A DNA stretch of 12,726 bases, taken from the IMG/VR virus record IMGVR_UViG_3300014846_000084. One strand, given 5' to 3'. Shown one piece after another: positions 1,837-12,726 of the stretch (positions are counted from its first letter, which is position 1; each line of letters starts with the position of its first letter). The notes under the pieces were generated by a model that did no database searches, had not been told where the DNA came from, and saw only the letters and a program-made list of their open reading frames with translations. The translations under genes and the position numbers were made by a program. The DNA comes from a virus. Lineage: Duplodnaviria; Heunggongvirae; Uroviricota; Caudoviricetes.

Positions 1837-3039
1837 ATGAATACTGGATATTCTCCCGAACAAGGGCGGGGCTTCGTTCGTCCTGAAAAACAGAATCTGC
1901 AAAATTTTGCCGAAATTATTCCGGTTATTTCCGGCCTTACTGGCGGGAGTGAAACCAATATTGTTAACGCCAGAGCGTTGCAGATGTTTGATGATAAAAA
2001 GGGAGTAAATTTAACTTACACCCCTGACGGCAATCAGAATATGAGCATTATCTCTGAGTCAGGTTTCTACAAACTAATAAAAACAAAAAGCGCCCCGTTG
2101 CCGGAGCGCCTTTGTGAACAATTAACCTACTGCGCAAAAAATGAATCTGAGCAGTGGGATTATATCAACCATGTGGAGAAGCGCCACAATTGCCGAATAA
2201 CGGGCAAAACAAAGGCCACCCGCTACGGTGGCCCCTCGACACAAGCTACACGTTATCCCCAACGCATGAGCATTGCCAACAATGCCACATTTGCGGCTGG
2301 TGGGCAATGCAATCAGTCTGGTTCAGTTCGTTGCCATACCTGCAATGAGCGCTTTTCCCTGTACTCTTTAAGGAATTGCTCAAGGGCAAAAGCACATGGC
2401 GCGAATCTTTCTGATTCATGCTCTATCTTTCTGCGCCGTCTTTTCCGTGCCGGTGATAATGTTTTGGTCAATTCTTTATCGGTCATTGTGTTGTCCTGCA
2501 TAGCAATGCGCCGTAATACCTTACACCACGGCGCTGATGGTGATTACTCTGGTTCTTTGGTCTTGCGGCGCTGGAGTTCTTCACGTGCGACAGTGACGAG
2601 CTGCCCGATCTCCTCGGCGGCTTTGATTCCGAGTTTTTCCACCTGCGCCAGTGCATCGAGCGAAGAAACTAGGGGATTTTCTCCACTTCCTTCTGCCTGG
2701 CGCCGGGCGATCTCACCGCGTACAGCCGTAACTATAAAATTCGCTTTAGTTTCCCCTGGCTGTAGGGATGCCTCAATGCCACTCACTACTTCATGTGGAA
2801 ATCTGGCATTCAGTTGCTGTGACTTATTGTTAACAGAACTCCTGGACATGTTTGCACCTCCCATTAATAACGGGATGCAGTGTAATACAAAAGTGAATAC
2901 CAAAAAAGACTTGAAATGGTATTCACCTAAATGTAATGTGAATACCACAAGTGCTGATACATGCAATTCAGCAATTGAAACGACGAAGCCCCGCACTGTT
3001 GGAGCAGTAACGGGGCTTCTAACCAACAACGTAAACTAG
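1837..3039 (+). CDS. Hypothetical ORF with a Bro-N/KilA-N-like segment in the first ~110 aa. The 3' boundary is uncertain: the open frame runs 400 codons, but the distal two thirds look like non-coding antisense of the minus-strand regulator gene. Possible pseudogene or mis-extended ORF.
   Basis: N-terminal translation contains KGVNLTYTPDGNQNMSIISESGFYKLIKTKS, which resembles the conserved Bro-N core. From about residue 150 the composition turns S/C/R-rich and overlaps a well-supported gene on the opposite strand. Weak SD before the ATG at 1837. Confidence 0.3.
   Translation: MNTGYSPEQGRGFVRPEKQNLQNFAEIIPVISGLTGGSETNIVNARALQMFDDKKGVNLTYTPDGNQNMSIISESGFYKLIKTKSAPLPERLCEQLTYCAKNESEQWDYINHVEKRHNCRITGKTKATRYGGPSTQATRYPQRMSIANNATFAAGGQCNQSGSVRCHTCNERFSLYSLRNCSRAKAHGANLSDSCSIFLRRLFRAGDNVLVNSLSVIVLSCIAMRRNTLHHGADGDYSGSLVLRRWSSSRATVTSCPISSAALIPSFSTCASASSEETRGFSPLPSAWRRAISPRTAVTIKFALVSPGCRDASMPLTTSCGNLAFSCCDLLLTELLDMFAPPINNGMQCNTKVNTKKDLKWYSPKCNVNTTSADTCNSAIETTKPRTVGAVTGLLTNNVN
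2313..2486 (-). CDS. Possible small basic protein (57 aa, MTDKELTKTLSPARKRRRRK...), downstream of the RHH gene on the minus strand
   Basis: ORF in the track (2313..2501) trimmed to the second ATG, which has an AGGA about 8 nt upstream. Composition is protein-like but there is no recognisable family. Overlaps the open + frame of the preceding feature. Confidence 0.2.
   Translation of the reverse strand: MTDKELTKTLSPARKRRRRKIEHESERFAPCAFALEQFLKEYREKRSLQVWQRTEPD
2544..2849 (-). CDS. Ribbon-helix-helix (Arc/MetJ-like) DNA-binding regulator, about 101 aa; candidate island repressor
   Basis: Track ORF 2544..3029 trimmed to the internal ATG at 2849, which has a strong SD (GGGAGGTG) 5 nt upstream. 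N-terminal segment LNARFPHEVVSGIEASLQPGETKANFIVTAVRGEI fits an RHH beta-strand/helix pattern. Transcribed divergently from the downstream operon. Confidence 0.7.
   Translation of the reverse strand: MSRSSVNNKSQQLNARFPHEVVSGIEASLQPGETKANFIVTAVRGEIARRQAEGSGENPLVSSLDALAQVEKLGIKAAEEIGQLVTVAREELQRRKTKEPE
2893..2947. promoter_or_regulatory. Operator-like triple repeat GTGAATACCA (direct 2893-2902, inverted 2918-2927, direct 2938-2947) in the divergent intergenic region between the RHH gene and the 3048 operon
   Basis: Three exact copies of a 10-mer in alternating orientation, within about 55 bp, lying between two divergent start codons (2849 minus, 3048 plus). Confidence 0.5.
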
Positions 3040-3934: not shown

Positions 3935-4234
3935 ATGAAACTTAAATATTCTGGCTTAACTGCCAGTGGCAACACTCACCCTAAATTTACGCGCGGTGAT
4001 ATTTACCGCGACCAGTACGGCGGCACGGTAATGATTAAGGGCGTGGAGGAACGTCGCGTAACTTACCGCCGTGAAGGCTACGAATATGATTGCGTGATGC
4101 CTGTTTATCAGTTCGACCGTGATTTTTCTCTTGTGCAGGCCGTACCGCGTAACGTGCCCACCAGCAGGGAGAAAGCACGCGCCAATATTCAGAAGATGAA
4201 AACCATGATTAACGGATTCAGGGGTAAAAAATGA
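3935..4234 (+). CDS. Hypothetical protein (99 aa), translationally coupled to the primase gene (ATGA overlap)
   Basis: Track ORF with GGAGA SD upstream. Its stop overlaps the primase ATG at 4231. Confidence 0.6.
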   Translation: MKLKYSGLTASGNTHPKFTRGDIYRDQYGGTVMIKGVEERRVTYRREGYEYDCVMPVYQFDRDFSLVQAVPRNVPTSREKARANIQKMKTMINGFRGKK

Positions 4235-5985
4235 AACTGGCACCGAACGTAAAACAGCAGTCACGCGGCATAAAACACAAAGAAACAGAAGTCATTATTT
4301 TTGCGGGTAGTGATGCCTGGTCACACGCAAAACAATGGCAGGAACATGACGCGCGTATGGCCGGAGATAATGAGCCTCCTGTGTGGCTTGGGGAGCAGCA
4401 GTTATCCGAACTGGATAAGCTGCAAATTGTGCCGGAAGGCAGAAAATGCGTACGAATATTCAGGGCCGGACATCTTGCGCCAGTAATGATAAAGGCGATT
4501 GGTCAGAAGCTGGCGGCGGCTGGCGTACAGGATGCAAATTTTTATCCTGAGGGTATGCACGGCCAGGAGGTGCAGAACTGGCGCGAATATCTGGCCCGTG
4601 AGCGACAGAATCTTTCTGATGGTCTGGTCATTGAGCTTCCGGTAAAGCAAAAGGCGCAACTTTCTCAGATGGCGGACAGTGAGCGCGCGCAGCTGCTTTC
4701 CGGGCGCTTTGATGGCGTTTGCGTGCATCCTGAAAGTGAAATCGTCCACGTCTGGCGCGGCGGGGGATGGTGTCCGGTCAGCACAATGGAACTGAGCCGC
4801 GAAATGGTGGCGATCTATTCAGAGCACAGGGCCACTTTCAGCAAGCGCGTAATCAATAACGCCGTGGAAGCGTTAAAAGTTATTGCCGAACCAATGGGCG
4901 AGCCGTCCGGTGATTTACTGCCGTTCGCCAATGGTGCGCTTGACCTGAAAACGGGGGAATTTTACCCGCACACGCCGGAGAACTGGATCACCACGCACAA
5001 CGGCATTGAGTACACGCCACCAGCACCAGGGGAGAACATCCGCGATAACGCGCCAAACTTTCATAAATGGCTTGAGCACGCAGCCGGAAAAGACCCGCGC
5101 AAGATGATGCGTATATGTGCCGCGCTGTACATGATTATGGCGAACCGGTACGACTGGCAGATGTTTATTGAGGCCACCGGAGATGGCGGGAGCGGTAAAA
5201 GTACATTCACGCACATAGCCAGCCTTCTGGCAGGGAAACAGAACACGGTAAGCGCTGAAATGACATCGCTTGATGATGCTGGTGGACGTGCGCAGGTTGT
5301 CGGGAGTCGTCTTATCGTCCTGGCTGACCAGCCGAAATATACAGGCGAAGGAACGGGCATCAAGAAAATCACGGGCGGTGACCCTGTGGAAATTAACCCG
5401 AAATACGAAAAGCGTTTCACGGCTGTAATCAGAGCGGTGGTGCTGGCGACCAACAATAACCCGATGATATTCACCGAACGGGCCGGAGGTGTGGCACGTC
5501 GTCGCGTGATTTTCCGTTTCGACAATATCGTCAGTGAGGCCGAAAAAGACAGGGAGCTACCGGAAAAGATTGCGGCTGAAATCCCTGTCATTATCCGCCG
5601 ATTGCTGGCGAACTTTACCGACCCTGAGAAGGCACGGGCTTTACTACTGGAACAGCGTGACGGTGATGAAGCTCTGGCAATAAAGCAACAGACGGATCCG
5701 GTTATTGAGTTTTGCCAGTTCCTGAATTTTCTGGAGGAAGCACGCGGCCTGATGATGGGCGGCGGTGGCGATTCAGTGAAGTACACGACCAGAAACAGCC
5801 TTTACCGCGTCTATCTGGCGTTTATGGCGTACGCAGGCAGGAGCAAACCGCTAAACGTAAATGACTTTGGCAAGGCTATGAAGCCAGCCGCGAAAGTTTA
5901 CGGACATGAATATATTACGCGGAAAGTTAAGGGAGTAACGCAGACTAACGCAATAACAACAGACGATTGCGACGCGTTTTTATAA
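4231..5985 (+). CDS. Phage/plasmid primase-helicase, P4 alpha-like (D5_N plus P-loop NTPase C-terminal region), 584 aa; probable replication initiator of the island
   Basis: Walker A reads EATGDGGSGKST and a Walker-B-like RLIVLADQ follows. Overall size and layout match P4-family primase C-terminal domain proteins. The iteron array starts directly after the stop. Confidence 0.88.
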   Translation: MKLAPNVKQQSRGIKHKETEVIIFAGSDAWSHAKQWQEHDARMAGDNEPPVWLGEQQLSELDKLQIVPEGRKCVRIFRAGHLAPVMIKAIGQKLAAAGVQDANFYPEGMHGQEVQNWREYLARERQNLSDGLVIELPVKQKAQLSQMADSERAQLLSGRFDGVCVHPESEIVHVWRGGGWCPVSTMELSREMVAIYSEHRATFSKRVINNAVEALKVIAEPMGEPSGDLLPFANGALDLKTGEFYPHTPENWITTHNGIEYTPPAPGENIRDNAPNFHKWLEHAAGKDPRKMMRICAALYMIMANRYDWQMFIEATGDGGSGKSTFTHIASLLAGKQNTVSAEMTSLDDAGGRAQVVGSRLIVLADQPKYTGEGTGIKKITGGDPVEINPKYEKRFTAVIRAVVLATNNNPMIFTERAGGVARRRVIFRFDNIVSEAEKDRELPEKIAAEIPVIIRRLLANFTDPEKARALLLEQRDGDEALAIKQQTDPVIEFCQFLNFLEEARGLMMGGGGDSVKYTTRNSLYRVYLAFMAYAGRSKPLNVNDFGKAMKPAAKVYGHEYITRKVKGVTQTNAITTDDCDAFL

Positions 5986-5997
5986 TTTGTTGCAATG

Positions 5998-6225
5998 GCT
6001 GTCTACCCTGTCTACCTGAGTAAAGAAAAATACATTTAATTCAGTACATTAACTTAGGTAGACAGCCTTTTTTCACTGTCTACCTACTATCTACCCTCTC
6101 TACCTGATTTTACCTGAATCAGACAGGGAGGTAGATACGGGGTAGATAGTGGATAAAAGCACTCTACCCTACTGAAAGCCGCGCCATTACTGGCATGGTG
6201 GCCAGTAAGGTAGATAAGGTAGACA
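5998..6225. repeat. Iteron array, candidate origin of replication: about 12 copies of GGTAGA(C/T)A / T(G)TCTACC in both orientations flanking an AT-rich spacer
   Basis: CTGTCTACC at 5999-6007, 6008-6016 and 6076-6084; GGTAGACAG at 6057-6065; TCTACC at 6090 and 6099; GGTAGATA at 6130, 6141 and 6209; GGTAGACA at 6218. AT-rich stretch at 6018-6056. Confidence 0.6.
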
Positions 6226-6273
6226 AGGGGAGGCACAACTCAAAACTTTTTAAACGAGGGGGTAAAAATAAAA

Positions 6274-6525
6274 ATGCGCACATCAGGAAAACTTAATAAT
6301 CAGAAGAAGCAGCATAACCGCGCCATTGACCTTACAGAGCACTGGCTGAGAGTGGCGATAAAAATCATCGACCGCAACACGGGGGAAGGATACGCGAAAG
6401 CACATCCCGACCTGATAAGCGCATTCATGACCACGGCGGCGGCAAACTTTGCCACGCTGACAGAACGGGAGATTGCCGAAGCGGAACAGGTAACAACCAT
6501 CAACGTTAAAAGCGCTGGAGAATAA
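6274..6525 (+). CDS. Hypothetical protein (83 aa)
   Basis: Track ORF. GAGGGGG SD at 6256-6262. Followed by an intrinsic terminator. Confidence 0.55.
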   Translation: MRTSGKLNNQKKQHNRAIDLTEHWLRVAIKIIDRNTGEGYAKAHPDLISAFMTTAAANFATLTEREIAEAEQVTTINVKSAGE

Positions 6526-6543
6526 CCGAAGAAGTGAGCACAT

Positions 6544-6568
6544 AGCCGGAGCAATCCGGCTTTTTTTC
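6544..6568 (+). terminator. Rho-independent terminator (AGCCGGA-gcaa-TCCGGCT followed by a T7 run)
   Basis: 7-bp GC-rich stem with a 4-nt loop and a run of seven T immediately after, 20 nt past the stop of the 6274 ORF. Confidence 0.6.
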
Positions 6569-6655
6569 GATCTCATATATCTTAAAAGATGGTTAATTAA
6601 TGATAATCTATCGAAAATACTGGTTATGTAATGATAAGTATCAGGAGAAAACAAA

Positions 6656-6850
6656 GTGGAAGAGATAAAGCAAAGCGCTACCGTGATGATTGATCATGAA
6701 ATCCTTAACGAGCTTAAAAAGTTGCAGTTCGATATTGTGCGCCGGATGAATGAATCAGGTATCTACGGCAGGGCGGCAACACCAACAATAGGGCATCTTG
6801 CGCGCGTACTGTTACGCGAACGCCTGGGCATTGCAACAAGTGAGGCGTAA
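6656..6850 (+). CDS. Hypothetical small protein (64 aa), GTG start; first gene of the putative late/packaging operon
   Basis: Track ORF. CAGGAG SD at about 6642. Preceded by an AT-rich promoter-like stretch at 6570-6650. Confidence 0.5.
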   Translation: MEEIKQSATVMIDHEILNELKKLQFDIVRRMNESGIYGRAATPTIGHLARVLLRERLGIATSEA

Positions 6851-6853
6851 ACA

Positions 6854-7015
6854 ATGGCTATCACAGAACGCGAGGCAAGCATCATTAAGGCCATTGGCGA
6901 GGAAACAAGAGACACCATAGCGCCATTGATGGAAAAGATCGCAGAGCTTGAGACACGAATAAACAAGCTGAGTAATGAAGTTGAAGGCCTGATCTCGTTA
7001 CTCGGTGAGCAATGA
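6854..7015 (+). CDS. Small predicted coiled-coil protein (53 aa, MAITEREASIIKAIGEETRDTIAPLMEKIAELETRINKLSNEVEGLISLLGEQ); absent from the ORF track, which appears to omit ORFs under 60 aa
   Basis: Translated by hand. ATG lies 4 nt after the upstream stop, with a GAGG about 9 nt upstream. Heptad-like charged/hydrophobic pattern. Confidence 0.4.
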   Translation: MAITEREASIIKAIGEETRDTIAPLMEKIAELETRINKLSNEVEGLISLLGEQ

Positions 7016-7143
7016 CATGGGGGGGAGTGTTCCGGCCGGAAAGTCGATCTCCCTGGACACCGCCCCCCGTCTCATTCGTAGAAAATTTTGCTTTTCAAAA
7101 AAGTTACACGAAAAGTTACACCCCCTCAAAACGAGGTTTTTGC

Positions 7144-7632
7144 ATGGCATTAACGACCAAAAAAAAGCGGTTTGCTGATGCGTTATCAAGGGGCGCAAAT
7201 CCCACGGAAGCCGCTATACATGCGGGATACAGCGAAAAGACCGCAAGGGTTAAAGGCTGGCAGCTATCCAACGATCCTGAGGTGAAAAAGTATCTTAAGG
7301 CTGTAACTCCTGATGTAACTTTTCAGGTTACAAAACCGAAAAAAGTTACAAAGAAAGTTACCGAAAAAGTTACACCGGAACGGGCATCAATTAACACCAT
7401 TGAGATGATGGATAACGGCCTACCCGACCCCATCAAAGCAATGGGCAGGATACTGATTGACAACATGGACACAGATCCAAAACTGGCTTTAGATGCCGCG
7501 TTTAAGCTGGCCCAGTTCACCCACCGCAAGATCGGCAGCATTGGGAAAAAAGAGGTTAAAAAACTCAATGCCGCTAGTGTCTCCTCAAATCGGTTCCCCA
7601 TCCCTAAGCCACCAACAGGCTTAAAACACTGA
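7144..7632 (+). CDS. terS: Terminase small subunit (TerS, Terminase_2-like), 162 aa
   Basis: Track ORF 7012..7632 trimmed to the internal ATG at 7144, which has a GAGG SD. N-terminus FADALSRGANPTEAAIHAGYSEKTARVKGWQLSNDPEV matches the conserved TerS HTH signature (AGYS..TA). The upstream 44 codons of the track ORF are GC-rich, structured, non-coding-looking sequence. Confidence 0.8.
   Translation: MALTTKKKRFADALSRGANPTEAAIHAGYSEKTARVKGWQLSNDPEVKKYLKAVTPDVTFQVTKPKKVTKKVTEKVTPERASINTIEMMDNGLPDPIKAMGRILIDNMDTDPKLALDAAFKLAQFTHRKIGSIGKKEVKKLNAASVSSNRFPIPKPPTGLKH
7303..7375. repeat. Cluster of six GTTAC/GTAAC pentamer-containing repeats spaced about 12 bp apart inside terS (encoding the repetitive KVT linker); candidate pac/TerS recognition site
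   Basis: GTAAC at 7303 and 7315; GTTAC at 7328, 7345, 7357 and 7369. Two further AAAAGTTACAC copies lie just upstream of the terS start (GTTACAC at 7103-7109 and 7115-7121). Confidence 0.45.
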
Positions 7633-7643
7633 GGTAGCGAACT

Positions 7644-7805
7644 ATGAGCGAATACATCACAGACCCTATTGATGTACTCACGGAAATCATGAACGACAAG
7701 CAGCAGTCGACCGAAATACGGTTACAGGCCGCCGCTATTCTGATGCCATATTTTCACGAAACACTAAACCCGTGCTTCCAAGAGGAGGAAGAAGATGATC
7801 TGTAA
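7644..7805 (+). CDS. Small acidic protein (53 aa, MSEYITDPIDVLTEIMNDKQQSTEIRLQAAAILMPYFHETLNPCFQEEEEDDL); absent from the ORF track
   Basis: Translated by hand. ATG at 7644 lies 11 nt after the terS stop, with a GAGG about 9 nt upstream. Its 3' end overlaps the start of the capsid-like gene by 11 nt. Confidence 0.4.
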   Translation: MSEYITDPIDVLTEIMNDKQQSTEIRLQAAAILMPYFHETLNPCFQEEEEDDL

Positions 7806-8718
7806 AAACATGAAAGGCGTGTCAGCAGTTCGCGCCGCCAGCGTGCTGGCATCGTGTAAATTTAGCCATGCTGACGCTATAGAGATGACGAAAAGAAATG
7901 ATCCGGCAGTATCGTTATTTCTTGAAAAATCCGTAGTAGCAGGAATGAACACGGATAACATGCCGTCGCTGGTGGCAGAGCCGATAGTAAGAGAGCTTGG
8001 CGAGTATATTTTTTCGCAGTCTGTACCAGGCAAGCTAATCAGCAGCGCGCTAAATCTTCCGTTTGGCGCAAAATTGCAGTCAATATCAGGCAAGGGTAGT
8101 AAATGGCTTAAAGAGGCCGAAGAAATCCCAGTCAAAGAGGGAGAAGTAAACGAAAGCGCGCTAAAACTGTGCAAACTCGGCGCTATTGTGATGCTGAATA
8201 ACGAGCTAATCAAATTTAGCACCCCTGGTACCAATTCAGCGATCAGAGACTTGATCACATCGGAATCGGTGAAAGAAATAGATAAAAAATTTCTTTCCAG
8301 TGACCAGGAGGTGGCTGGCGTATCCCCTGAGGGCGTGCTTAATGGTGCTGATGAGGCCGAAAACTTCATAGAGCTTTTCAAAAAGCACATAGCGAACGGT
8401 AACACGCTTGCCACGTCGTCGCTAATCTTGCCCGTAGAAAACGCCTTACAGCTTACTGATGCTGAGTTCTGGCAGATAGAGCTTTTGAGAATACCGGTAA
8501 TTGTGAGCGAACAGGCGGATCTCATGATGCTGATAGACGCTAAAAAGCTGATTATTAACGTTGAAGCCACGGTTATAACCCCAACTGATGAGGCGGTAAT
8601 AAAAACCGAATCAGGGACGGTTAGCCTTTTCCAGAATGACGCTACAGCGTTCATGGCAATCACCTATTGCGGATGGCAAAAACTCGATAAGGCCGTCACC
8701 GTTCTGGCGAAAAGCTGA
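7795..8718 (+). CDS. HK97-fold major capsid protein homolog (307 aa), putative; possibly a capsid-redirecting MCP paralog given the absence of other head genes
   Basis: AGGAGG SD 7 nt upstream of the ATG. The overall pattern, especially the C-terminal region (LRIPVIVSEQADLMMLIDAKKLIINVEATVITPT...SLFQNDATAFMAITYCGWQ), resembles HK97-type major capsid proteins. Assignment is by eye only. Confidence 0.55.
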   Translation: MICKNMKGVSAVRAASVLASCKFSHADAIEMTKRNDPAVSLFLEKSVVAGMNTDNMPSLVAEPIVRELGEYIFSQSVPGKLISSALNLPFGAKLQSISGKGSKWLKEAEEIPVKEGEVNESALKLCKLGAIVMLNNELIKFSTPGTNSAIRDLITSESVKEIDKKFLSSDQEVAGVSPEGVLNGADEAENFIELFKKHIANGNTLATSSLILPVENALQLTDAEFWQIELLRIPVIVSEQADLMMLIDAKKLIINVEATVITPTDEAVIKTESGTVSLFQNDATAFMAITYCGWQKLDKAVTVLAKS

Positions 8719-8805: not shown

Positions 8806-9087
8806 ATGACAGAAGCCGAAATACTGGGATTAATCCGCCGCGTTGCCGGAATCAGCAAGCAGGCCGACGAACAGGCCACGCAGCCGGACAGCGTGACCGC
8901 CGAAAATTATGTGCGTGTTGTTGCTGAGGTGATGCGCCGTGATGGTATCCAGCTTAATGATGTGGATATGCGCAACATACGGATCCGCGTTCTTGAAATG
9001 CTGGCCTACAATCGCCGCGTTGAACTGTATCGGGAGAAAGAAAAAATTACGTACCACTGGAAGAAGCCGGAGCGGTTACGGCGTTAA
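8806..9087 (+). CDS. Hypothetical protein (93 aa), last gene of the island
   Basis: Track ORF. AGGTGGAG SD at 8796-8803. Balanced, protein-like composition. Confidence 0.55.
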   Translation: MTEAEILGLIRRVAGISKQADEQATQPDSVTAENYVRVVAEVMRRDGIQLNDVDMRNIRIRVLEMLAYNRRVELYREKEKITYHWKKPERLRR

Positions 9088-9093
9088 CGAGTA

Positions 9094-9138
9094 GTGACAT
9101 ACCGTGACGGAGAGTGACAACCAGTGACACAACGTGAC
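9094..9138. repeat. Tandem array of five phased 10-bp repeats (GTGAC every 10 bp; consensus nnnGTGACAn) at the island terminus
   Basis: GTGAC at 9094, 9104, 9114, 9124 and 9134. Contains the octamer GACACAAC (9126-9133), which also occurs at 1275-1282 and 1536-1543. Confidence 0.6.
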
Positions 9139-9390
9139 AAAAAGACGGTATTTAAACAGGGGGAGTATTTAATACCCCTCCCACCAGCCTGATTAACATT
9201 TAACCGGAAAAAAAATCCGGTACCATGATGGCAGACGCTAGGGCAATCATTGCTGAAATTGCACACTTTTTAAGCAAATCATTTTAGTTATACGTTTGGT
9301 TATACGATTTAAAAGTTGAATCAAGCATATTTATTAAAATCATGTAGTTACACGCTAAATTAAACTACTCTCGTGCCAAAAATCCCAAGA

Positions 9391-12269: not shown

Positions 12270-12726
12270 TAGACTGGCCCCCTGAATCTCCAGACAACCA
12301 ATATCACTTAAATAAGTGATAGTCTTAATACTAGTTTTTAGACTAGTCATTGGAGAACAGATGATTGATGTCTTAGGGCCGGAGAAACGCAGACGGCGTA
12401 CCACACAGGAAAAGATCGCAATTGTTCAGCAGAGCTTTGAACCGGGGATGACGGTCTCCCTCGTTGCCCGGCAACATGGTGTAGCAGCCAGCCAGTTATT
12501 TCTCTGGCGTAAGCAATACCAGGAAGGAAGTCTTACTGCTGTCGCCGCCGGAGAACAGGTTGTTCCTGCCTCTGAACTTGCTGCCGCCATGAAGCAGATT
12601 AAAGAACTCCAGCGCCTGCTCGGCAAGAAAACGATGGAAAATGAACTCCTCAAAGAAGCCGTTGAATATGGACGGGCAAAAAAGTGGATAAAGCACGCGC
12701 CCTTATTGCCCGGGGATGGGGAGTAA
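12270..12726 (+). mobile_element. IS2 (IS3 family) insertion sequence, left end only; IRL begins about 12270 and the element continues beyond the window
   Basis: Sequence from about 12270 (TAGACTGGCCCCCTGAATCTCCAGACAACC...) matches my recollection of the IS2 left inverted repeat, and the downstream ORF matches IS2 orfA. Recognised from memory, not from a search. Confidence 0.8.
12361..12726 (+). CDS. insC: IS2 transposase OrfA (InsC-like HTH protein), 121 aa
   Basis: Track ORF 12316..12726 trimmed to the ATG at 12361, which has a GGAGAACAG SD-like sequence upstream. Translation [40 protein letters not shown]... is the IS2/IS3-family OrfA as I recall it. Confidence 0.88.

What the first reader, a model, noticed from the sequence alone, without database searches (positions are those of the whole stretch)
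7099..7375. GTTAC repeat clusters upstream of and inside terS: candidate pac site that also encodes a repetitive linker
Two AAAAGTTACAC copies lie 12 bp apart just upstream of terS, and six GTAAC/GTTAC-centred repeats at about 12-bp spacing lie within terS, encoding the repetitive VT/KVT protein segment. Repeated TerS-binding motifs within or beside terS are the classical arrangement of pac sites. Related GTTA(T/C)ACG copies recur at the island end, which I report separately.
Basis: seen in the sequence. Interest (0 to 1): 0.55.

Follow-up and report, generated by a model that had tools for sequence, protein, structure and literature searches.

The report
Satellite cos site with TerS-binding repeats
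A phage-parasitic island of E. coli carries the DNA-cutting signal of its likely helper phages, followed by its own 12-base address label, which recurs inside the small-terminase gene and there also spells out that protein's repetitive linker.

Summary
AAAGTTAC occurs 6 times in the window, all within 7100-7373 (0.54 expected; 0 of 200 shuffles reach 6). Two 12-nt copies lie upstream of terS and six GTTAC/GTAAC-centred copies lie inside it.

The repeats are very probably small-terminase (TerS) recognition sites, but they belong to a cos site, not a pac site. Thirty bases upstream lies CGCCCCCCGT (7061-7070). This matches the published 3' cohesive end of Stx1 phage Lys8385Vzw and sits in a core shared with HNH-terS-terL phages. 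The first repeat starts about 33 nt after that core in all 12 loci compared.

The motif is under selection as DNA:
- Relatives with VT linkers carry AAAAGTTACACC both upstream and in the gene.
- Relatives with VN linkers carry GTTAAC in both places.
- Some copies lie in another reading frame or on the other strand.
- Codon identity is 78% in the linker against 48% elsewhere.

I read this as a cosB-like array that lets the island's own TerS direct the helper's TerL and HNH to island DNA. Binding itself is untested.

The GTTAYACG copies at the island end are more likely integrase arm sites. This is a new variant of a known kind, of moderate interest.

The parts
7019..7098 (+). cos core shared with helper-type phages. 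It runs from the G-run (7019-7025) through CTGGACACCGCCCCCCGT to CTCATTCGTAGAAAATTT.
   Evidence: About 79% identical to the intergenic HNH-terS stretch of Stx1a-converting phages (L001 2501-2579). The same block aligns in 12 loci of satellites and phages.
7061..7070 (+). Equivalent of the cohesive end (cosN): CGCCCCCCGT.
   Evidence: Virion sequencing with PhageTerm gave phage Lys8385Vzw 3' cohesive ends of CGCCCCCCCT (PMC7946995). Its GenBank record ends in that 10-mer and starts with CTCACGCAGAG. The window 10-mer differs at one base and is identical to that of Stx1a_PV728. Cleavage in the island itself is inferred.
7099..7110 (+). Upstream site U1, AAAAGTTACACG, non-coding.
   Evidence: Its GTTA starts 33 nt after the CTCA anchor, the same register as the first site in all compared loci.
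7111..7122 (+). Upstream site U2, AAAAGTTACACC, which equals the family consensus. Non-coding.
7144..7632 (+). terS, 162 aa. It has an N-terminal HTH DNA-binding domain (residues about 5-54), a predicted disordered linker (about 55-90) and a helical core and C-terminus.
   Evidence: PHROG 641 at E 1.3e-43 and Pfam Terminase_2 at E 1.9e-10, N-terminal part only. It is 47% identical to the Stx1a phage TerS. The AlphaFold model has pLDDT above 87 for residues 1-50 and about 45-64 for residues 51-90.
7300..7311 (-). In-gene site G1, AGGAGTTACAGC on the minus strand. It encodes A-V-T-P.
7312..7323 (-). In-gene site G2, AAAAGTTACATC on the minus strand. It encodes D-V-T-F.
   Evidence: GTA ACT T(T/C)T is kept in 4 of 5 diverged homologs.
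7323..7334 (+). In-gene site G3, TCAGGTTACAAA, with a weak flank. It encodes Q-V-T-K.
7341..7352 (+). In-gene site G4, AAAAGTTACAAA. It encodes K-V-T-K.
   Evidence: AAA GTT ACA is invariant across homologs.
7353..7364 (+). In-gene site G5, GAAAGTTACCGA. It encodes K-V-T-E.
7365..7376 (+). In-gene site G6, AAAAGTTACACC, identical to U2. It encodes K-V-T-P.

Best explanation
The segment 7019-7376 is the cos site of a phage satellite (a PICI-like island at tRNA-Pro). It has two parts.

1. A cosN-type core (7019-7098) that the island shares with HNH-dependent, HK97-style cos phages of E. coli, namely Stx1, Stx2 and PPompW prophages. It includes the 10-nt cohesive-end sequence at 7061-7070.

2. 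A private cosB-like array of 12-nt sites with consensus AAAAGTTACACC. Two lie between the core and the terS start. Six more lie 160-230 nt into terS, two inverted and four direct, mostly 12 bp apart.

Proposed mechanism (inferred):
- The HTH domains of the island's own oligomeric TerS bind this array. The phage TerS instead prefers GTTAAC.
- TerS then recruits the helper's TerL and HNH nuclease through its conserved C-terminal half.
- The complex is positioned to cut at the shared core, so island concatemers are packaged in preference to phage DNA.

The in-gene sites sit in the disordered linker between the DNA-binding domain and the oligomerisation core, where almost any peptide is tolerated. 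The K-V-T and V-T-F repeats are what the DNA word reads as on the two strands. In this reading the DNA sites dictate the peptide, not the reverse.
For: What is shown here:

1. Motif enrichment and clustering: 6 matches against 0.54 expected, all within 274 bp.

2. A 12-nt consensus with conserved flanks. Among 34 sites from five loci only 52-65% identical in protein, positions -4 to -1 are A in 23-29 sites, +5 is A in 30, and +6 and +7 are C in 19 and 18. This holds for coding and non-coding copies on either strand.

3. A fixed register. In 12 satellite and phage loci the first site begins 33-36 nt after the conserved ...CCCC(C/G)T|CTCA... junction.

4. That junction is the mapped 3' cohesive end of Lys8385Vzw.

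5. Covariation between the upstream and in-gene motifs:
- Five VT-linker loci have GTTAC in both places.
- VN-linker loci L113, L114 and L117 have GTTAAC in both places. L115 has GTTAAC in the gene and on the HNH side of the core, but ATTAAC at the first upstream position.
- L117 has the same satellite gene layout as the window but reads AAAAAGTTAACCCC.
- Phages without linker repeats (the Stx1a phage and L118) keep all their GTTAAC copies upstream.

6. Independence from reading frame:
- GTAACTTTT, the reverse complement of the word, reads V-T-F.
- L116 carries ATG TTA ACA (M-L-T), L117 carries AGG TTA ACT, and L078 carries GCG TTA ACC.

7. Synonymous-site conservation:
- Pairs with the same amino acid share the codon in 78% of linker comparisons and 48% elsewhere.
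- The codon is invariant in 5 of 7 linker columns against 8 of 47 elsewhere (Fisher p = 0.006).

8. The 12-bp spacing also holds in non-coding DNA: window U1/U2, L078, L114 and L118.

9. The linker is predicted to be disordered.

10. TerS is the only DNA-binding packaging gene common to all these elements. The island has no terL, HNH or portal gene.

11. No sigma-70-like promoter was found in 6500-7700, and no Rfam family matches.

From the literature:
- HNH-dependent cos packaging.
- Lambda cosB R-sites in both orientations downstream of cosN.
- PICIs that keep the helper's cosN but have a different cosB.
Against: - No binding, cleavage or packaging data exist for this island. TerS as the binder is an inference from adjacency and covariation.
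- In SF6, the best-studied member of the same Pfam family, the isolated DNA-binding domain showed almost no preference for the pac repeats (PMC4737164). Specific HTH-to-repeat recognition cannot be assumed.
- In HK97 the TerS reads a single 15-bp site through its central tunnel. That TerS belongs to a different family, but it shows that arrays are not obligatory.
- The covariation probably reflects one ancestral switch, since the GTTAC loci form one clade of 52-68% identity. It is not many independent events.
- Site number varies from 4 to 10 between loci, so no fixed stoichiometry emerges.
- The nearest relative of the window (ZH48) shows no second cos or terS match in its genome. A resident helper is therefore not always present.
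- No sequenced phage in the phage collection has the GTTAC-type TerS. The only phage context found is a Hafnia prophage.
Confidence: 0.72

Rival explanations
1. Coding constraint only. The DNA repeats are a by-product of selection for a repetitive K-V-T peptide linker in TerS. The two upstream copies arose by chance or by local duplication.
For: The in-gene copies are in frame at 4-codon spacing. The VT dipeptides are conserved in homologs down to 51% identity. Copy number changes in whole 4-codon units (P0003 and P0004).
Against: - The same 12-mer sits in non-coding DNA at a fixed distance from the cos core in every locus.
- Copies occur on both strands, giving different peptides (KVT and VTF), and in other reading frames (MLT, RLT, ALT).
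- Synonymous positions are fixed: K is always AAA, V is GTT or GTA and never GTG or GTC at the core sites, and T is ACA or ACT.
- The peptide switches to VN exactly where the upstream motif is GTTAAC.
- The linker is predicted to be disordered, and its length and sequence are otherwise unconserved.
Confidence: 0.04
2. The sites are bound by a protein other than TerS. They could be operators for a regulator of the packaging operon, or arm-type sites for the island integrase or excisionase, given the similar AGTTA(T/C)ACG copies at the att ends.
For: AGTTACACG at 9346-9354 is an exact 9-mer match to U1. It sits among AGTTATACG repeats that flank both att sites. The integrase has an arm-binding domain. 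In satellites the sites lie directly upstream of the first gene of the packaging block.
Against: - The motif array is conserved in true phages, where terS lies inside the late operon after HNH, with different or no integrases nearby.
- Its register is fixed relative to the cohesive end, not to any promoter.
- No promoter-like site was found.
- The motif varies together with the terS lineage.
- A single shared 9-mer in 12.7 kb is expected by chance about once in ten.
Confidence: 0.08
3. A classical pac site. TerS binds the repeats, TerL cuts imprecisely nearby, and packaging is headful.
For: The TerS belongs to the Pfam family of the pac phages SPP1 and SF6. Their pac region also has repeats running into the terS gene.
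Against: - The conserved core includes the mapped 10-nt 3' cohesive end of a related phage.
- An HNH gene lies next to terS in all phage relatives, and terL is of the HK97-type Terminase_1 class.
- The core is conserved base for base between satellite and phages, as expected for a precise cutting site.
Confidence: 0.04
4. The upstream copies are functional TerS sites, but the in-gene copies are evolutionary residue with no role in packaging. They could be a duplicated array captured by the growing linker and kept by mild selection, or a slippage-prone tract that tunes linker length.
For: - Some phages do without in-gene sites: the Stx1a phage and L118.
- Copy-number variants exist.
- The in-gene sites lie 230-300 bp from the cut, further than the lambda R sites.
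Against: - The in-gene words are conserved at synonymous sites across lineages whose other synonymous sites are randomised.
- They switched motif together with the upstream site.
- Loci with only one upstream site always have in-gene sites, while loci with 2-5 upstream copies and no linker repeat have none in the gene. This suggests a requirement for a minimum total.
Confidence: 0.12

Closest known systems
Lambda-type cos: cosN followed by cosB with R3-I1-R2-R1 sites for gpNu1 (TerS), upstream of the TerS gene
   Same: The order is cut site, then repeated TerS sites in both orientations, then the TerS start codon. The first site lies a few tens of bp after the cut: lambda R3 is at bp 50-65 and the site here is at about +29 to +40. 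The number of sites varies between relatives; N15 has one, with its TerS start at bp 89 (PMC9026076).
   Different: - The TerS is of another family: Terminase_2 with an SF6-like DNA-binding domain, not the gpNu1 winged HTH.
- The cohesive end is a 10-nt 3' end and HNH-dependent, not a 12-nt 5' end.
- Most sites lie inside the TerS coding sequence at 12-bp spacing.
- No IHF site was looked for or shown.
E. coli PICI EcCICFT073 and Rpp: a satellite that keeps the helper's cosN but has its own cosB
   Same: The logic is the same. The cutting site is shared with the helper and the recognition site is private, which diverts the helper terminase to satellite DNA (PMC6739421).
   Different: EcCICFT073 has no TerS. 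It encodes Rpp, which forms a heterodimer with lambda TerS. This island encodes a complete TerS homolog, and its apparent helpers are HNH-type cos phages, which Rpp does not affect (HK97 is insensitive).
SaPI TerS(S) with the SaPI pac site, and SaPIbov5 (a cos SaPI with the capsid homolog Ccm)
   Same: Like pac SaPIs, the island brings its own TerS to recognise its own site. Like SaPIbov5, it exploits HNH-dependent cos phages and carries a capsid-protein homolog (7795-8718; PMC8569155 abstract).
   Different: - pac SaPIs use headful packaging.
- SaPIbov5 has no TerS and simply copies the helper's cos.
- This island combines own TerS, shared cosN and private sites, a combination I did not find described.
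SPP1/SF6 pac region (same Pfam family of TerS) and the P1 pac hexamer arrays inside pacA
   Same: The TerS family and domain plan are the same. The repeats span the start of the TerS gene. From my own knowledge, not checked here: P1 pac consists of repeated hexamers located inside the pacA gene.
   Different: Those are headful systems. For SF6 the repeats turned out not to be read specifically by the isolated DNA-binding domain. None of them is reported to have sites that generate a repetitive peptide linker.
HK97 cos and small terminase
   Same: HNH-assisted cos cleavage leaves a 10-nt 3' overhang, and the TerS site lies just downstream of the cut, at +15 to +29 (PMC11331095).
   Different: HK97 TerS belongs to a different family, uses a single 15-bp site and threads DNA through its channel. 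Here there is an array of 4-10 short sites.

Membership tests
cos site of HNH-dependent (HK97-style) packaging modules | Defined cohesive-end sequence at the cutting site | tested here: met
   Window 7061-7070 CGCCCCCCGT against the mapped 3' cohesive end CGCCCCCCCT of Lys8385Vzw. It is identical to the 10-mer of Stx1a_PV728. This is met by homology only; cleavage in the island has not been shown.
cos site of HNH-dependent (HK97-style) packaging modules | HNH endonuclease gene next to terS-terL | tested here: not met
   The window has no HNH or terL gene. All phage relatives do have them, and one satellite type (L078) has HNH. The island would have to borrow both.
cosB-like TerS recognition array | Repeated sites at a fixed position downstream of cosN and next to the TerS gene | tested here: met
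   The first site starts 33-36 nt after the junction in 12 loci. Further copies lie upstream or in the gene.
cosB-like TerS recognition array | Site sequence co-varies with the TerS lineage | tested here: met
   The GTTAC(AC) clade differs from the GTTAAC lineages. Upstream and in-gene copies agree in 8 of 9 loci that have in-gene repeats; L115 has ATTAAC at the first upstream position. TerS residue 20 partitions the same way, P/S against Q/K/R. This probably reflects one switch event.
cosB-like TerS recognition array | Direct, specific binding by TerS | not testable with these tools
   This needs EMSA or footprinting. Caveat: the SF6 DNA-binding domain is nearly non-specific in vitro.
pac site (headful packaging) | Imprecise cleavage with terminally redundant, permuted virion DNA | tested here: not met
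   A related phage has defined 3' cohesive ends in the very sequence conserved here. This is an indirect test.
Terminase_2 (SPP1/SF6-type) small terminase | N-terminal HTH DNA-binding domain, linker and helical oligomerisation core | tested here: met
   Pfam PF03592 at E 1.9e-10, covering positions 1-51 of 141 only. PHROG 641 matches at full length, E 1.3e-43. A profile hit to SF6 TerS 3ZQP has E 0.006, in the DNA-binding domain only. The model shows four helices at 5-54, a disordered stretch at 55-90 and helices at 96-149. The oligomeric state was not tested.
PICI-type phage satellite | Integrase at one end and site-specific insertion with att repeats | tested here: met
   Tyrosine integrase at 1-1230 with an arm-binding domain. 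Insertion next to tRNA-Pro between yejM and yejO. A 10-nt core, CTCTCGTGCC, repeats at 9368-9377.
PICI-type phage satellite | Own replication module (primase/helicase plus ori) and no lysis, tail, portal or terL genes | tested here: met
   D5-type primase at 4231-5985. Iterons lie 3' of it. No other structural genes were detected apart from the capsid-like ORF.
PICI-type phage satellite | Induction and high-frequency transfer by a helper phage | not testable with these tools
   There is only circumstantial evidence. The cos core is shared with Stx and PPompW prophages. Nine of the 11 listed island-bearing genomes show additional phage-type matches.
PICI-type phage satellite | AlpA-type regulator | tested here: inconclusive
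   No Pfam hit for the small ORFs tested. A relative is annotated with an HTH regulator in the equivalent region.

The most novel reading that the evidence does not exclude
In this TerS family the gene carries its own address label. The disordered linker is used as a parking place for an array of TerS-binding sites, so cosN, the sites and terS travel as one self-contained specificity cassette. The peptide repeats (KVT, VTF or KVN) are a read-out of the DNA word. A two-base change of that word (GTTAAC to GTTACAC), matched by changes in the DNA-binding domain (candidate residues 20 and 39), created an orthogonal packaging channel. Satellites would use this channel to out-compete Stx-type helper phages for their TerL and HNH.
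Probability: 0.45. Interest if true: 0.65.

Novelty: new variant of a known kind. Interest (0 to 1): 0.55.

Why it matters
If correct, it gives three things.

1. A first map of the cos recognition elements (cutting site plus TerS sites) for the HNH-terS-terL module carried by many Stx1, Stx2 and PPompW prophages of pathogenic E. coli and by the satellites that parasitise them. That bears on how Shiga-toxin phages and their satellites compete and spread.

2. A third way for satellites to hijack packaging in Gram-negative bacteria: own TerS, private cosB and shared cosN. The two known ways are copying the helper's cos and reprogramming the helper's TerS with Rpp.

3. A clean natural example of dual coding, in which protein-binding DNA sites dictate a protein's linker sequence.

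It also offers a simple experimental system. Two closely related words (GTTACAC and GTTAAC) and their matching TerS proteins could be used to study how ring-shaped small terminases read arrays of sites. That question is still open for the SF6/SPP1 family.

Tried and rejected
- A genome-contig scan with the TerS alignment found 37 pattern matches but no confirmed relative.
- The metagenome and viral-contig scans returned only near-identical islands or the single Stx-phage lineage, so they added no diversity. Diversity came instead from a profile protein search followed by contig look-ups.
- I looked for a sequenced phage with the GTTAC-type TerS in the phage collection. None was found; the best hit was 41.6% identical.
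- I tested whether the 53-aa ORF after terS is a TerS fragment. It has a profile hit only and no BLASTP similarity.
- Promoter or operator reading: no sigma-70-like site in 6500-7700.
- RNA-element reading: no Rfam hit in the window.
- Residue 39 (W/C/Y against S) as a clean specificity determinant was rejected, because P0045 is a GTTAAC-type protein with C at that position.
- The island-end GTTAYACG repeats as further TerS sites were rejected in favour of integrase arm sites.
- Close relatives of the island (23 loci) show no variation in the sites, so they could not be used for a population-level test.
Full report
**1. What is in the window**

The window is a phage-satellite-like island of E. 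coli inserted next to tRNA-Pro, between yejM and the chromosomal autotransporter gene yejO. Its genes are:
- a tyrosine integrase with an arm-binding domain (1-1230);
- small ORFs and a D5-type primase (4231-5985);
- three small ORFs;
- a 162-aa small terminase, TerS (7144-7632), which matches PHROG 641 at E 1.3e-43 and Pfam Terminase_2 over its N-terminal domain;
- a 53-aa ORF;
- a 307-aa capsid-like ORF (7795-8718);
- a 93-aa ORF.

The island ends near 9368-9377, where 10 nt of the tRNA 3' end recur. It has no terL, HNH, portal, tail or lysis gene. Near-identical terS regions occur in 220 of 5,426 complete E. coli genomes, many of them STEC.

**2.

- AAAAGTTACACG (7099-7110) and AAAAGTTACACC (7111-7122) lie 22-45 nt upstream of the terS ATG.
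- Inside terS, GTAAC or GTTAC cores sit at 7303 and 7315 (minus strand) and at 7327, 7345, 7357 and 7369 (plus strand).
- TRF reports both period-12 arrays.
- AAAGTTAC occurs 6 times in the window, all within 274 bp. Shuffles give 0.54, and none of 200 reaches 6.

**3. The repeats are part of a cos site, not a pac site**

The 79 nt just upstream of the repeats (7019-7097) are about 79% identical to an intergenic stretch of Stx1a-converting phages. In those phages the stretch lies between an HNH endonuclease ORF and terS-terL.

A related phage, Lys8385Vzw, was sequenced from virions. It was reported to be a cos phage with 3' cohesive ends of sequence CGCCCCCCCT (PMC7946995). Its GenBank record ends with that 10-mer and begins with CTCACGCAGAG. 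The window has CGCCCCCCGT|CTCATTCGTAG at 7061-7081, and the 10-mer is identical to that of phage Stx1a_PV728.

Twelve loci from satellites and phages align here: E. coli, Salmonella, Hafnia, Dryocola, Morganella, Proteus, Enterobacter and metagenomes. All show the same architecture: a G-run, about 45 nt...CCCC(C/G)T|CTCA(C/T)..AGAAAA.., and then the first repeat beginning 33-36 nt after the junction. This is the order seen in lambda-like phages: cosN, then cosB R sites, then the TerS start. The 10-nt 3' end and the HNH gene point to HK97-style cleavage.

**4. The repeats are selected as DNA**

I collected homologs only 51-65% identical to the island TerS. All keep AAAAGTTACAC(C) upstream:
- one copy in a Hafnia prophage that has a full HNH-terS-terL-capsid module;
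- one copy each in a Salmonella satellite and in a metagenome-derived satellite (L084);
- six GTTAC-centred copies, one of them inverted, in an E. coli island that has its own HNH.

All also keep GTAACT(T/C)T followed by AAAAGTTACA(CC) inside the gene. A compilation of 34 sites gives the 12-nt consensus AAAAGTTACACC. Its flanks are conserved whether the copy is coding or not, and on either strand.

The peptides follow from the word. AAA GTT ACA reads K-V-T. The reverse complement, GTA ACT TTT, reads V-T-F.

Synonymous positions are conserved in the linker. Pairs with the same amino acid share the codon in 78% of comparisons there and in 48% elsewhere. The codon is invariant in 5 of 7 linker columns against 8 of 47 elsewhere (Fisher p = 0.006).

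**5. Covariation**

A profile search found more distant TerS proteins whose linker repeats are x-x-V-N rather than x-x-V-T. V-N is GTT AAC, and GTTAAC is the hexamer repeated five times upstream of terS in the Stx phages. I predicted that VN-type loci would carry GTTAAC both in the gene and in the upstream non-coding DNA. They do:

| Locus | Upstream | In gene |
|---|---|---|
| L113 (metagenome phage) | 1 copy | at least 8 |
| L114 (Dryocola prophage) | 3 copies | 2 |
| L115 (Morganella prophage) | ATTAAC at the first position; GTTAAC on the HNH side of the core | 3 |
| L117 (satellite, same terS / 53-aa / ~318-aa layout as the window) | AAAAAGTTAACCCC | 5 |

Other loci add to the picture:
- In Proteus (L116) the in-gene GTTAAC is in another frame (ATG TTA ACA).
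- L117 and L078 also have out-of-frame copies.
- Phages without a peptide repeat (the Stx1a phage and the Enterobacter prophage L118) hold all their GTTAAC copies upstream, 12 bp apart in L118.

The 12-bp spacing also holds in non-coding DNA in the window, L078, L114 and L118, so codon periodicity does not impose it.

The GTTAC loci form one clade. The covariation therefore probably reflects a single switch of the word, followed by long maintenance at many sites.

**6. Protein context**

The AlphaFold model, built on a 40-sequence alignment, shows:
- a confident four-helix N-terminal domain (residues 5-54, pLDDT 87-95);
- a low-confidence linker (about 55-90, pLDDT 45-64) that contains all the VT repeats;
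- a helical core and C-terminus.

The DNA-binding domain aligns weakly with that of SF6 TerS. The C-terminal half is well conserved with the Stx-phage TerS; identity is 47% overall, concentrated there. This fits use of the phage's TerL.

Residue 20 is P or S in all GTTAC-type proteins and Q, K or R in all others aligned. Residue 39 is W, C or Y against S, with one exception. These are candidate specificity determinants, not demonstrated ones.

**7. Mechanism proposed**

Shown here:
- the architecture of the site;
- its conservation, register and covariation;
- the island's lack of terL and HNH.

Taken from the literature:
- the cohesive end;
- the HNH dependence of this class;
- the logic of a shared cosN with a private cosB in PICIs.

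Inferred:
- The island TerS oligomer binds U1, U2 and G1-G6 through its HTH domains.
- It recruits the helper's TerL and HNH.
- It positions them on the shared core so that island concatemers are cut at 7061-7070 and packaged.
- The helper TerS prefers GTTAAC and so ignores the island.

I put 0.72 on the repeats being TerS recognition elements of a cos site, and somewhat less on the in-gene copies being required.

**8. Caveats**

- The isolated DNA-binding domain of SF6 TerS shows little sequence preference in vitro.
- HK97 TerS uses a single site.
- Site number varies from 4 to 10 among loci.
- No helper has been identified experimentally.
- The island's closest relative genome has no second cos match.
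- The phage collection contains no phage with a GTTAC-type TerS.

**9. Island-end repeats**

AGTTATACG (9286-9294), GGTTATACG (9298-9306) and AGTTACACG (9346-9354) lie just inside the attR core. Four more AGTTATACG copies, two direct and two inverted, lie between the tRNA and int at the other end in a near-identical island. Together with the integrase's arm-binding domain, these look like arm-type recombination sites. The 9-mer they share with U1 is within chance expectation.

**10. Novelty**

The general kinds are known:
- TerS sites beside or inside terS (lambda cosB, SPP1 pac and, from memory, P1 pac);
- satellites that bring their own TerS (SaPIs);
- satellites that change cosB recognition (Rpp).

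In the searched literature I found no description of this cos architecture, of the GTTAC and GTTAAC words, of a TerS-encoding cos satellite of HNH-type phages in E. coli, or of binding sites that write a repetitive linker. I rate it a new variant of a known kind, with interest 0.55.

Noticed in passing
window 7644-7805 (+): A 53-aa ORF directly after terS has a PHROG profile hit to the core of the TerS family (phrog_641 positions 89-125, E 4e-7) but no BLASTP similarity to the island's TerS. A 50-53-aa ORF occupies the same position in other satellites (L083, L084, L117). It could be a decoy or inhibitor of the helper's TerS, comparable to SaPI Ppi.
   Followed up: partly
window 7795-8718 (+): A 307-aa ORF matches the C-terminal two-thirds of the HK97-type major capsid family (PF05065, E 1.7e-6). 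A similar ORF of about 280-320 aa follows terS in every satellite-type locus. This is reminiscent of the SaPIbov5 capsid homolog Ccm, which makes small capsids.
   Followed up: no
window 5999-6228: Short iterons containing TCTACC (CTGTCTACC x2, ACTATCTACCT x2, and TAAGGTAGA x2.6 on the other strand) lie just downstream of the primase gene. PICI replication origins usually lie at that position.
   Followed up: no
window 9094-9139: Five copies of GTGAC(A/G) at an exact 10-bp period lie immediately after the last island ORF (8806-9087). I have no explanation for them.
   Followed up: no
window 9286-9354 and 9368-9377; L002 3371-3440: AGTTATACG-type repeats flank both ends of the island, inside the att cores. 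The attR core CTCTCGTGCC at 9368-9377 matches the 3' end of tRNA-Pro. They are probably integrase arm-type sites, since the integrase has an Arm-DNA-bind_3 domain.
   Followed up: partly
L078/L079 3800-4235: A second E. coli island type (HNH, terS, capsid-like ORF) has six GTTAC-centred copies (one inverted) plus a GTTAAC copy upstream, and a GTTAAC (GCG TTA ACC) among its in-gene GTTAC sites. This may be a hybrid array readable by two TerS types.
   Followed up: no
P0003, P0004, P0018, P0063 (TerS homologs): The linker is highly plastic. There are deletions of exactly 4 or 8 codons in E. coli variants, a 15-aa duplication in an E. albertii Stx-type TerS, and about 15 xxVN units in a metagenomic phage. 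This fits unequal recombination between the 12-bp repeats.
   Followed up: partly
window 1837-3039 and comparison with L002: The left half of the island is mosaic. The closest relative (ZH48) matches only from window position about 6370 onward and has a RepA-type helicase where the window has a D5-type primase. The 400-aa ORF at 1837-3039 has no family hit and looks non-genic. An IS3-family transposase ORF starts at 12316, beyond yejO.
   Followed up: no
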